From the IMG/VR virus record IMGVR_UViG_3300025015_000010, positions 96,001 through 160,000 of that record: a stretch of 64,000 bases of DNA, one strand, 5' to 3'. The stretch is from a virus. The notes under the pieces were generated by a model, which worked only from the letters and a program-made list of their open reading frames with translations, was not told the DNA's origin and ran no database searches. Shown here in pieces: positions 16,978 through 17,288 of the stretch; positions within the stretch are counted from its first letter, which is position 1, and each line of letters opens with the position of its first letter. Position numbers and translations under genes: made by a program.

Positions 16978-17240
16978 TATTTGGTCAGTCAGCCTTCAAA
17001 TTGTTGATAAAAATAGCTGACTGACCAAATATTTTTAACTAACCAGATAGTCTGTTCTATTTATGAGATGTATTCGTAGCAGTACCTGGTTAGTTATATT
17101 TATAGGCCAGTAGTGGTATCGGTATGCACTCTACTTTGCGCTGGTGCTCGCCTTCAGCCTGTCTAACCGTTTTCGAGGAGAGCCGACTACTGGGATCACT
17201 ACTGGCCTAGTTTTTTATAGTTTTGACTCGTTTCCGAGTC
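16978..17240 (-). ncRNA. string of four stem-loops downstream of promoter
   Basis: perfect stems of 16, 11, 13 and 6 bp; GAAA tetraloop on minus strand. Confidence 0.55.
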
Positions 17241-17259
17241 GTTTGTCTCTTATGCTGAT

Positions 17260-17288
17260 ACTATACACGGTTGATGTTTGAATGTCAA
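17260..17288 (-). promoter_or_regulatory. sigma70-type promoter
   Basis: TTGACA-17-TATAGT. Confidence 0.75.

What the first reader, a model, noticed from the sequence alone, without database searches (positions are those of the whole stretch)
16978..17288. Promoter-driven string of clamp-and-loop hairpins
Seen: directly after TTGACA-17-TATAGT come a GAAA-capped hairpin (17225-17240) and three units closed by perfect, mutually unrelated stems of 13 bp (17103-17209), 11 bp (17036-17096) and 16 bp (16978-17031). They are separated by 4-15 nt AT-rich linkers and display loops of about 80, 39 and 22 nt. This is an array in structure but not in sequence. Inference: a polycistronic small-RNA cassette cut at the linkers (decoys, antisense or antitoxin mimics), lying next to the divergently transcribed RNA ligase/CCA operon.
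Basis: partly seen in the sequence, partly recalled or inferred. Interest (0 to 1): 0.72.

Follow-up and report, generated by a model that had tools for sequence, protein, structure and literature searches.

The report
Phage row of stem-closed small RNAs
An uncultured groundwater phage has a strong promoter followed by about 800 bases with no gene, folded as a row of separate hairpin-closed RNA modules, and this stretch begins with the same leader as the phage's Ro60/Y-RNA operon; it is probably a new set of phage small RNAs, but there is no expression or conservation evidence and the function is unknown.

Summary
A TTGACA-17-TATAGT promoter on the minus strand is followed by a GAAA-capped hairpin. 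Three units then follow, closed by perfect stems of 13, 11 and 16 bp, with loops of 81, 39 and 22 nt and A-rich linkers of 15, 6 and 4 nt. Such a cluster never appeared in 100 shuffled genomes, nor in 955 kb of other phage loci.

The flagged 311 nt is only the first third of an untranslated row of eight stem-closed modules, about 810 nt long (z = -6.8). The row runs on to a small ORF and to phosphatase/macrodomain-like and NMNAT-like genes.

The new finding is that the promoter and its first ~65 transcribed bases have exactly one paralogue in the genome. That copy heads the phage's Ro60/Y-RNA/tRNA-Met operon. Its hairpin keeps pairing through U·G pairs that work only on the sense strand.

No unit matches an Rfam family, a tRNA or the Y-RNA Ro-binding motif. 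The units are single-copy. The array is not seen in the 954 nt that the one related contig (L031) holds below the shared promoter, and it is invariant in all metagenome runs laid. No RNA data exist.

Best reading (confidence 0.45): a polycistronic early non-coding transcript cut in the A-rich linkers into stable clamp-and-loop RNAs. Rivals are a cis-acting leader, DNA-level palindromes and plus-strand terminators.

The parts
17260..17288 (-). Sigma-70-type promoter TTGACA-17-TATAGT (P17288); predicted start near 17256-17253
   Evidence: 11 of 12 matches. Genome-wide there are 25 sites with at least 11 of 12 matches, against about 2 expected from my own estimate. A paralogous promoter lies at genome position 40692.
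17210..17256 (-). Conserved leader: single-stranded AGCAUAAGAGACAAAC, a 6-bp hairpin capped by GAAA (17240-17225), then the A-rich tract AAAACUAUAAAAAAC
   Evidence: It is about 85% identical to the leader of the Ro60 operon (genome 40724-40775), while the promoter spacer is only about one third identical. The Ro copy keeps the hairpin through two U.G pairs that are valid only on the sense strand. Pairing probability is 0.998.
17103..17209 (-). Unit 1: perfect 13-bp closing stem and an 81-nt, weakly structured interior
   Evidence: stem probability 0.99. Single copy in the genome. No Rfam match.
17036..17096 (-). Unit 2: perfect 11-bp stem, extended to 14 bp by a G.U pair that exists only on the minus strand; 39-nt A/U-rich loop
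   Evidence: stem probability 0.985.
16978..17031 (-). Unit 3: perfect 16-bp stem and 22-nt loop
   Evidence: z = -7.5; stem probability 0.99.
16460..16971 (-). Continuation of the row: four more stem-closed modules at about 16971-16844, 16834-16712, 16702-16577 and 16576-16460, with imperfect stems
   Evidence: Folds (the whole 817 nt has z = -6.8). One metagenome run holds a variant allele confined to 16795-16969.
16278..16445 (-). First plausible ORF after the row (55 aa, weak RBS AGAAAGAA). It is followed by a 171-aa phosphatase/macrodomain-like gene (15794-16309) and an NMNAT-like gene (14759-15241).
   Evidence: 804 nt from the promoter to the first ORF.

Best explanation
The stretch is the 5' third of an untranslated early transcript of about 810 nt, read from the minus strand by host sigma-70 RNA polymerase.

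The transcript opens with a conserved leader: a 16-nt single-stranded tract, a GAAA-capped hairpin and an A-rich tail. The phage uses this leader only twice. The other copy heads its Ro60/Y-RNA/tRNA-Met operon.

Behind the leader come eight modules, each closed by its own terminal helix and separated by short A-rich single-stranded linkers.

Inferred mechanism:
1. A host endonuclease of the RNase E type cuts in the linkers.
2. Exonucleases trim back to the perfect 11-16-bp stems.
3. Stable RNAs of 54-107 nt accumulate early in infection. Each displays a 22-81-nt, largely unpaired, A-rich loop that acts in trans on an RNA or protein partner still to be found.

Shown here: the promoter, the modular fold, the lack of coding capacity, the paralogous leader and the sense-strand signature.
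Inferred: transcription itself, cleavage, stability and trans action.
For: - Promoter and strand context. The promoter matches 11 of 12 positions and all genes in 12667-18540 are on the minus strand, behind tandem minus-strand promoters at 18542, 17825, 17288 and 15877.
- Coding capacity. No minus-strand ORF of 30 aa or more lies in 16978-17256.
- Fold. z = -7.2 for the array and -6.8 for the 817-nt row. A coding control of similar length gives z = -0.06. Closing stems have pairing probability of at least 0.98.
- Rarity. The cluster was absent from 100 shuffled genomes and from 955 kb of other loci.
- Leader paralogue. It occurs only at the head of the Ro60 operon. That operon holds Y-like RNAs and a tRNA.
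- Long untranslated stretches. The two cassettes precede untranslated stretches of 804 and 936 nt, among the longest called after the 25 strong promoter-like sites. Several of the other long calls are artefacts of the ORF caller.
- Sense-strand signatures. The Ro-copy hairpin holds U.G pairs. Unit 2 has a G.U pair on the minus strand. Unpaired positions are 55% A on the minus strand, as in the Ro leader (46%).
- No termination on the sense strand. No U-tract follows any stem on the minus strand.
- Neighbouring clamp. The 166-nt unit at 18077-18242 is 97% identical in the only relative while its coding flanks are 75-81% identical, and a C-to-U change there turns a G-C pair into G.U on the minus strand. 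So at least one clamp of this design is a conserved minus-strand RNA.
- Background from abstracts read: RNase E cuts single-stranded segments with a U two nucleotides downstream of the cut (PMC5222698), and stable folded fragments are carved out of longer bacterial transcripts by RNases (PMC6156199).
Against: - No RNA-seq run holds the sequence, so transcription and processing are unobserved.
- There is no comparative support. The one related contig shows small ORFs below the shared promoter before it ends, and no array. All metagenome contigs laid are identical across the array, so no covariation can be counted.
- The stems are perfect Watson-Crick, which is unusual for old structured RNAs.
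- Unit 1 and the whole row fold somewhat better on the plus strand.
- The interior of unit 1 has no robust fold.
- No target was found. The best loop matches to the phage genome and to its tRNAs are at chance level.
- The shared leader could merely reflect shuffling of promoter cassettes, as with PeSLs in T4-type phages (PMC2839356).
Confidence: 0.45

Rival explanations
1. Cis-acting structured leader. The 810 nt stay attached to the downstream mRNA (small ORF, phosphatase/macrodomain-like gene, NMNAT-like gene). The leader cassette and the compact modules would protect a long untranslated RNA from Rho and from nucleases, or set the level or timing of the genes behind. No separate small RNAs would be made.
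For: No terminator or promoter separates the row from the ORF at 16445. The Ro60 copy of the cassette is likewise followed by a long structured stretch that runs into a protein gene. Earlier notes of this scan (not tested here) report that other promoters in this genome, at window 7252 and 45501, are also followed directly by stem-closed leaders; one search printed those sequences. Long structured leaders with regulatory hairpins are known, for example the 456-nt pLS20 leader (PMC13401043, abstract).
Against: Eight independent modules with perfect clamps and A-rich linkers are far more than stabilisation or attenuation needs. There are no alternative pairings of the terminator/antiterminator type and no U-tracts on the sense strand. 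The downstream ORF has only a weak RBS. A 12-of-12 consensus promoter at 15877 can serve most of the downstream genes on its own.
Confidence: 0.3
2. DNA-level palindromes without RNA function. The units would be young inverted duplications or recombination scars in a hyperplastic early region, tolerated because the region is non-coding.
For: The stems are perfect with no wobble pairs in their cores. The units are single-copy. The related contig shows no array in the 954 nt it holds below the shared promoter, and its intergenic spacer replaces the one that carries the 60-nt hairpin 18010-18069 in the window. The region is mosaic between strains: a variant allele lies at 16795-16969 and loose ends near 17989. 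Promoter cassettes in this genome form families, as in PeSL-mediated shuffling.
Against: Three or four independent palindromes packed head to tail directly behind a strong promoter, and nowhere else, are not expected from random duplication. A strong A-over-U bias at unpaired positions on the sense strand and the conserved sense-strand leader hairpin point to selection at the RNA level. The array is identical in runs from three studies, while neighbouring stretches differ by 8-13%.
Confidence: 0.12
3. Tandem intrinsic terminators, or an insulator, for plus-strand (antisense) transcription. Alternatively, a transcription-activated replication origin.
For: On the plus strand every stem is followed by 5-6 T in the next 8 nt. 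The hairpin 17224-17241 is called terminator-like on the plus strand. The plus strand has the lower folding energy: -267.5 against -254.9 kcal/mol for the row, and -44.3 against -38.2 for unit 1.
Against: No plus-strand gene or promoter of at least 10 of 12 matches lies between 12447 and 18566 to feed such terminators. Loops of 22-81 nt are far from terminator design. In the Ro60 copy the hairpin is broken by two C.A mismatches on the antisense strand. The T-rich tracts are the complement of the A-rich sense linkers, and a U-richer strand folds better by composition alone. GC skew follows gene orientation and shows no turning point here.
Confidence: 0.08

Closest known systems
Y-RNA arrays beside Ro60/Rsr (YrlA/YrlB and Yrn1, PMC4201824; Yrl1/Yrl2 of Thermus phage phiLo, PMC12135203), including this phage's own Ro60 operon at genome 40.7-44 kb
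   Same: Several small RNAs lie in a row, each with its 5' and 3' ends paired in a terminal stem around a large loop, and are co-transcribed behind one promoter in a phage. The array shares its promoter and leader with the Ro60 operon of the same genome. A CGAA tetranucleotide occurs in the loops of units 1 and 2.
   Different: The array lies 70 kb from Ro60. It has none of the GGUACG...UUGACC stem motif that the phage's own Y RNAs carry. It has no tRNA-like domain. The Rfam models YrlA, YrlB and Y_RNA stay silent even at E = 10, while they do find the Ro-adjacent RNAs. The array stems are perfect helices without the bulge.
Polycistronic stable-RNA clusters of large phages (tRNA clusters with extra small stable RNAs, as in T4; from my own knowledge, not checked here)
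   Same: One promoter drives many end-paired stable RNAs, separated by short A/U-rich spacers that host RNases cut.
   Different: No unit here is a tRNA, and the units match no known family.
PeSL cassettes of T4-type phages (promoter-early stem-loops; PMC2839356, PMC4122927)
   Same: A strong sigma-70-like early promoter is joined to a stem-loop. The cassette is repeated within the genome, sits in a variable region of small ORFan genes, and one PeSL subclass has the stem-loop just downstream of the -10 box.
   Different: PeSLs occur in many copies, are about 100 bp long, end at the RBS of the next gene, and their stem-loops terminate upstream transcription. Here there are only two copies. The hairpin has no U-tract on the sense strand, and each copy is followed by 800-940 nt of structured non-coding RNA.
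RNase III processing hairpins of T7-type early transcripts (from my own knowledge)
   Same: Hairpins lie in a row within an early polycistronic transcript made by host polymerase.
   Different: Those sites lie between protein cistrons and are roughly 20-bp stems with an internal loop. Here 11-16-bp stems close large loops and no cistrons lie between them. The phage encodes no RNase III.

Membership tests
Y RNA (YrlA/YrlB/Y_RNA; Rfam RF02553, RF02565, RF00019) | Match to the family covariance model | tested here: not met
   No Y-family hit at E <= 10 in 16200-18700 or in 16970-17260. The whole-genome YrlA search hits only 43339-43575 and the tRNA cluster.
Y RNA (YrlA/YrlB/Y_RNA; Rfam RF02553, RF02565, RF00019) | Ro-binding motif on the 5' strand of the terminal stem (GNCGAA(N)G or GGUCCGA-like; in this phage GGUACG paired with UUGACC) with a bulged helix | tested here: not met
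   A pattern scan finds the motif pair at 41452-41544, 41566-41635 and 43325-43446, but not in the array. The array stems are perfect and have no bulge. Only a bare CGAA is present in the loops of units 1 and 2.
Y RNA (YrlA/YrlB/Y_RNA; Rfam RF02553, RF02565, RF00019) | Encoded next to a Ro60/TROVE gene | tested here: not met
   The TROVE gene is at genome 41745-42797. The array is at genome 112978-113288.
Y RNA (YrlA/YrlB/Y_RNA; Rfam RF02553, RF02565, RF00019) | Binding to Ro60 | not testable with these tools
   This needs a gel-shift or pull-down assay with the phage Ro60.
tRNA / tRNA-like | Cloverleaf detectable by ARAGORN or the Rfam tRNA model | tested here: not met
   No tRNA in the window. 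Five tRNAs lie elsewhere in the genome. There is no tRNA hit in the array. Similarity to the phage's own tRNAs is at chance level.
Intrinsic (Rho-independent) terminator | G+C-rich hairpin with a short loop, followed at once by a U-tract on the transcribed strand | tested here: not met
   Minus strand: only 2-3 T in the 8 nt after each stem. Plus strand: 5-6 T after each stem, but the loops are 22-81 nt and no plus-strand transcription unit reaches the site. Only the small hairpin 17224-17241 passes the scan, and it does so on the plus strand.
PeSL promoter/stem-loop cassette | [quoted passage not shown] | tested here: inconclusive
   A promoter-plus-hairpin cassette is present and repeated, but only twice. 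Each copy is followed by a long non-coding stretch rather than an RBS. Recombination at the cassette could not be tested.
preQ1-I riboswitch (RF00522) | P1 hairpin whose loop pairs with the 3' tail (H-type pseudoknot), with the A-rich tail directly after P1 | tested here: not met
   The score is 17.8 bits against a gathering score of 39. Only the tail CUAUAAAAAACUAG resembles the consensus. The upstream hairpin has a GAAA loop that cannot form P2. The Ro60 paralogue does not keep the tail sequence.
MITE / REP-like repeated palindromic element | Multiple copies of the same element in the genome, with terminal inverted repeats and target-site duplications | tested here: not met
   Each unit is single-copy in the 169-kb contig. 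All three stems begin TA and end TA, but there are no repeated ends and no duplication beyond the palindrome itself.
Integron attC site | Core sites RYYYAAC ... GTTRRRY at the ends of the imperfect palindrome, with an integrase nearby | tested here: not met
   Read directly from the sequence. Unit 2 comes closest (AACTAAC ... GTTAGTT, one position off in each). Units 1 and 3 lack the motifs.

The most novel reading that the evidence does not exclude
The phage carries a second non-coding operon, co-regulated with its Ro60/Y-RNA operon through a shared promoter-leader cassette. This operon yields a new class of clamp-and-loop display RNAs: unrelated sequences on a common scaffold of perfect terminal stem and open A-rich loop. 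They would serve as clients, gates or competitors of the phage Ro60 / host PNPase machinery, or as decoys for host RNA-targeting defences.
Probability: 0.2. Interest if true: 0.75.

Novelty: new variant of a known kind. Interest (0 to 1): 0.45.

Why it matters
Large phages are known to carry tRNAs, Y RNAs and a few big ornate RNAs. Promoter-driven operons made only of unrelated small structured RNAs have not been catalogued, as far as the searches run here show.

If the units are real products, this locus and the Ro60 operon that shares its leader would show that a phage devotes two early transcripts to non-coding RNAs. It would also offer a compact test case:
- a leader cassette of about 65 nt whose role could be assayed (antitermination, processing or stability);
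- seven or eight small RNAs whose partners could be fished out.

If instead the row is only a leader or a set of palindromic scars, the locus is an ordinary feature of a hyperplastic early region.

Tried and rejected
- **Rfam.** Searches at gathering and at E <= 10 gave only chance hits to hairpin-like miRNA models, Ref1C, OrzO-P and preQ1.
- **Phage collection.** BLAST of 16300-18650 found no match.
- **Relatives through neighbouring proteins in IMG/VR.** RNA ligase hits reached at most 38% identity. ORF88 and the CCA enzyme gave none.
- **Protein search with the ligase.** It found relatives at 72-80% identity (P0002-P0005).
- **Metagenome scan.** L031 ends 954 nt below the shared promoter and shows small ORFs there instead of the array.
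- **Exact-pattern scans for the leader cassette.** There was one chance hit in IMG/VR and none in GTDB genomes.
- **Sequencing runs.** No RNA holder is listed. The laid DNA contigs are identical over the array, so covariation could not be counted. Some runs have no cover left of 17230, and nothing can be concluded from that.
- **Antisense-target idea.** The best matches of units to the genome are 13-15-mers at about the number expected by chance.
- **Anticodon-loop or tRNA mimicry.** An 8-mer and a 17-of-21 match between unit 3 and tRNA-Leu are at chance level.
- **Leader-trailer pairing.** It is present in the array (-14.7 kcal/mol) but not conserved in the Ro copy.
- **Strand choice by folding energy.** Not decisive; the plus strand folds slightly better.
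- **Other checks.** No phage RNase III. No origin signal in GC skew. No Pfam or PHROG family for the small neighbouring ORFs. P69685 upstream of tRNA-Lys, considered as a third non-coding operon, turned out to be a 226-aa ORF with z = -0.06.

Full report
**Setting.** The window is bases 96001-160000 of a 168,734-bp uncultured virus contig (IMG/VR, about 77% complete). The sequencing runs that hold it are groundwater metagenomes. The genome carries five tRNAs, all outside the window. It carries a TROVE/Ro60 gene at 41745-42797 with weak but full-length YrlA-like RNAs behind it. In the window it has a T4 Rnl1-type RNA ligase (18618-19763) and a CCA-adding enzyme (20680-21930).

**Observation.**
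- The promoter is on the minus strand: TTGACA at 17288-17283, a 17-nt spacer, and TATAGT at 17265-17260.
- Reading the minus strand, the hairpin GACUCG-GAAA-CGAGUC (17240-17225) follows.
- Three units come next, closed by perfect stems of 13 bp (17209-17103, 81 nt inside), 11 bp (17096-17036, 39 nt) and 16 bp (17031-16978, 22 nt). The linkers are AAAACUAUAAAAAAC, UAAAUA and AAAA.
- The fold of 16960-17260 has z = -7.2.
- Perfect inverted repeats of at least 11 bp with a loop of 15 nt or more (up to about 120 nt) number 19 in this genome, against 3.4 +/- 1.7 in Markov shuffles.
- Three such repeats within 300 nt never occurred in 100 shuffles or in 955 kb of other Rnl1-bearing loci.
- The units share no sequence with each other or with the rest of the genome.

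**Extent.** The string is the first part of a longer object. From the predicted start (about 17256) to the first plausible start codon (ATG at 16445) there are about 810 nt with no convincing ORF. This stretch folds as eight side-by-side stem-closed modules: the 5' hairpin, units 1-3 and four larger modules with imperfect stems. Its z-score is -6.8. In this long context the closing stems of the flagged units still form with probability of at least 0.98. A protein-coding stretch of similar length from the same genome gives z = -0.06.

**Which strand.** Folding energy does not decide. The plus strand folds slightly better: -267.5 against -254.9 kcal/mol for the row, and unit 1 gives -44.3 against -38.2. 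On the plus strand each stem is followed by 5-6 T in 8 nt. I weigh it lower for five reasons.
- All ORFs from 12667 to 18540 are on the minus strand, behind a series of minus-strand promoters (18542, 17825, 17288, 15877). No plus-strand promoter of at least 10 of 12 matches and no plus-strand gene lies between 12447 and 18566.
- Loops of 22-81 nt are not terminator design.
- The T-tracts are simply the complement of A-rich sense linkers. On the minus strand 55% of unpaired positions are A, as in the Ro60 leader on its sense strand (46%). Enrichment of unpaired A is typical of natural structured RNAs (my own knowledge). A U- and G-richer strand also folds better by composition alone.
- Unit 2 gains three pairs through a G.U pair that exists only on the minus strand.
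- The leader hairpin has a paralogue whose pairing survives only on the sense strand (next paragraph).

**The shared leader.** A genome-wide promoter scan showed that P17288 and a promoter at genome 40692 share much more than the hexamers.
- From the -10 box through about 65 transcribed bases the two read TATAGTA-NN-AGCATAAGA-R-ACAAA-Y-GAC...GGAAAC...GAGTCAAA-(1-2 nt)-TAT-N-AAAAA-(0-1 nt)-TAG.
- The spacer between the hexamers is only about one third identical.
- No third copy exists in the contig.
- In the second copy the hairpin is GACUUUG-GAAA-CGGAGUC. It is one pair longer and has two U.G pairs that would be C.A mismatches on the other strand.
- The second copy heads the Ro60 operon. About 940 nt of structured non-coding RNA follow (z = -3.1). 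They end in two Y-like RNAs with GGUACG...UUGACC stems (41452-41544, 41566-41635). Then come Ro60, two YrlA-like RNAs and tRNA-Met.
- Among the 25 strongest promoter-like sites, these two are followed by untranslated stretches of 804 and 936 nt. These are among the longest called. Several of the other long calls are artefacts of the ORF caller; one of them, after the site at 69685, proved to be a 226-aa ORF.

The phage therefore starts its two long non-coding transcripts with the same cassette. This is the main support for reading the array as an RNA operon, because the Ro60 transcript, if read as one, should be cut into small stable RNAs. One caveat applies. Promoter cassettes in this genome form families (for example four near-identical ones at window 61139-64833). 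In T4-type phages such promoter-plus-stem-loop cassettes (PeSLs) spread by recombination (PMC2839356). Shared ancestry of the cassette therefore does not by itself prove shared function.

**What the units are not.**
- They match no Rfam family. At E <= 10 only generic hairpin models and a preQ1 tail resemblance appear, and the paralogue does not keep that resemblance.
- They are not tRNAs.
- They are not Y RNAs by any testable criterion: there is no model hit, no Ro-binding motif, no bulged helix and no adjacent Ro60 gene. A bare CGAA in the loops of units 1 and 2 is too weak to count.
- They are not repeated elements.
- They are not attC sites (direct reading of the sequence).
- They are not sense-strand terminators.
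- Their loops have no better-than-chance complementarity to the phage genome or likeness to its tRNAs.

**Comparative evidence.** This is the weak point.
- The single metagenome scan returned only one of them, L031.
- L031 keeps the divergent promoters, an 84-aa ORF, the 166-nt clamp 18077-18242, the next small ORF and the P17825 promoter. In place of the spacer that carries the 60-nt hairpin 18010-18069 in the window, L031 has a shorter, different spacer with no hairpin. Below the promoter it carries four unrelated small ORFs until the contig ends 954 nt on. The array is therefore either absent or displaced in this relative. The region behaves as a variable early region.
- In metagenome contigs from three studies the array is letter-for-letter identical. 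A neighbouring module (16795-16969) has a second allele with 23 substitutions and 4 indels. The ORFs to the right differ by 8-13% in places. This may mean constraint or a recent common origin.
- The 166-nt clamp is informative for the design. It is 97% identical between the two phages against 75-81% for its coding flanks. Its 13-bp inner helix has three G.U pairs on the minus strand. One of the five differences is a C-to-U change that turns a G-C pair into G.U on that strand. At least one end-clamped unit of this block is thus a conserved minus-strand RNA.

**Mechanism proposed.**
1. Host sigma-70 polymerase starts at P17288 early in infection.
2. The conserved leader may bind a factor or guard against Rho on an untranslated RNA. 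This is inferred by analogy with nut and rrn leaders and is not tested.
3. The modules fold one after another as they emerge.
4. A host RNase E-type enzyme cuts the A-rich linkers. Single-stranded A/U-rich segments next to stems are its known substrates (PMC5222698).
5. Exonucleases stop at the perfect stems.
6. The resulting 54-107-nt RNAs persist and present open A-rich loops to partners still unknown.

Steps 1 and 3 rest on sequence evidence. Steps 2, 4, 5 and 6 are inference. The main rival keeps the same transcript but leaves it uncut, as a leader for the small ORF and for the phosphatase/macrodomain-like and NMNAT-like genes downstream. Minor rivals are RNA-neutral palindromic scars and plus-strand terminators.

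**Verdict.** The interpretation as a promoter-driven cassette of stem-closed RNAs is the best available and gains a new argument from the shared leader. Processing, trans action and the suggested decoy, antisense or antitoxin roles remain unsupported. The evidence comes from one genome only, with no expression or covariation data, so interest is moderate. Other first-stage readers flagged this same stretch, and one follow-up on it is withheld. A follow-up on the adjacent 16503-16974 reached a compatible reading, a row of about seven small RNAs. I reproduced that reading by folding.

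Noticed in passing
window 18077-18242 (minus strand); L031 1189-1362: A 166-nt G+C-rich clamp RNA between two small ORFs is 97% identical in the only related contig, while its coding flanks are 75-81% identical. Its inner 13-bp helix has three G.U pairs on the minus strand only, and one difference is a G-C to G.U change. It has no Rfam match, so it is a conserved unknown RNA, possibly a cis element for the ORF that follows about 20 nt later in L031.
   Followed up: partly
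window 18010-18069: A 60-nt hairpin with a perfect 13-bp stem lies between the 166-nt RNA and the next ORF. In the related contig L031 a shorter, different intergenic spacer stands in its place, with no clean target-site duplication.
   Followed up: partly
genome 41369-41635 (L030 1125-1391): Upstream of the phage Ro60 gene lie two further Y-like RNAs with GGUACG...UUGACC terminal stems (41452-41544, 41566-41635) and a weak YrlB hit (41369-41441). They come in addition to the two YrlA-like RNAs and tRNA-Met downstream of Ro60.
   Followed up: partly
window 17826-17992 versus L031 1012-1175: The 55-aa ORF is conserved, with mostly synonymous changes over its last ~45 codons. L031 has one base fewer near codon 9, which shifts the frame. 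This is either an assembly error or a different start.
   Followed up: no
window 18507-18542; L031 1616-1650: The -10 box TAGACT lies 6 nt before the ATG of the 85-aa ORF in both phages, which suggests a leaderless mRNA.
   Followed up: no
window 61139, 62726, 63690, 64833 (minus strand): Four promoters share nearly identical sequence from the spacer through the first transcribed bases (…ACATGCTATAATGTTCTCAGTCAA). They form a repeated promoter-cassette family reminiscent of PeSLs.
   Followed up: no
window 59174-59305 (minus strand): A perfect 19-bp stem closes a 94-nt interior and starts 4 nt after the -10 box of a TTGACT-16-TATGCT promoter. It is another end-clamped RNA candidate, this one beginning at the transcription start.
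   Followed up: no
window 16795-16969: One groundwater run (X7) holds two alleles of this module of the row. The second has 23 substitutions and 4 indels, between flanks that are identical in the contigs laid. The module interior looks swapped or fast-evolving.
   Followed up: partly
genome 69851-70531 (L113 252-932): A 226-aa ORF rich in Cys-X2-Cys pairs (possibly an HNH-type endonuclease; not scanned) lies directly upstream of tRNA-Lys.
   Followed up: no
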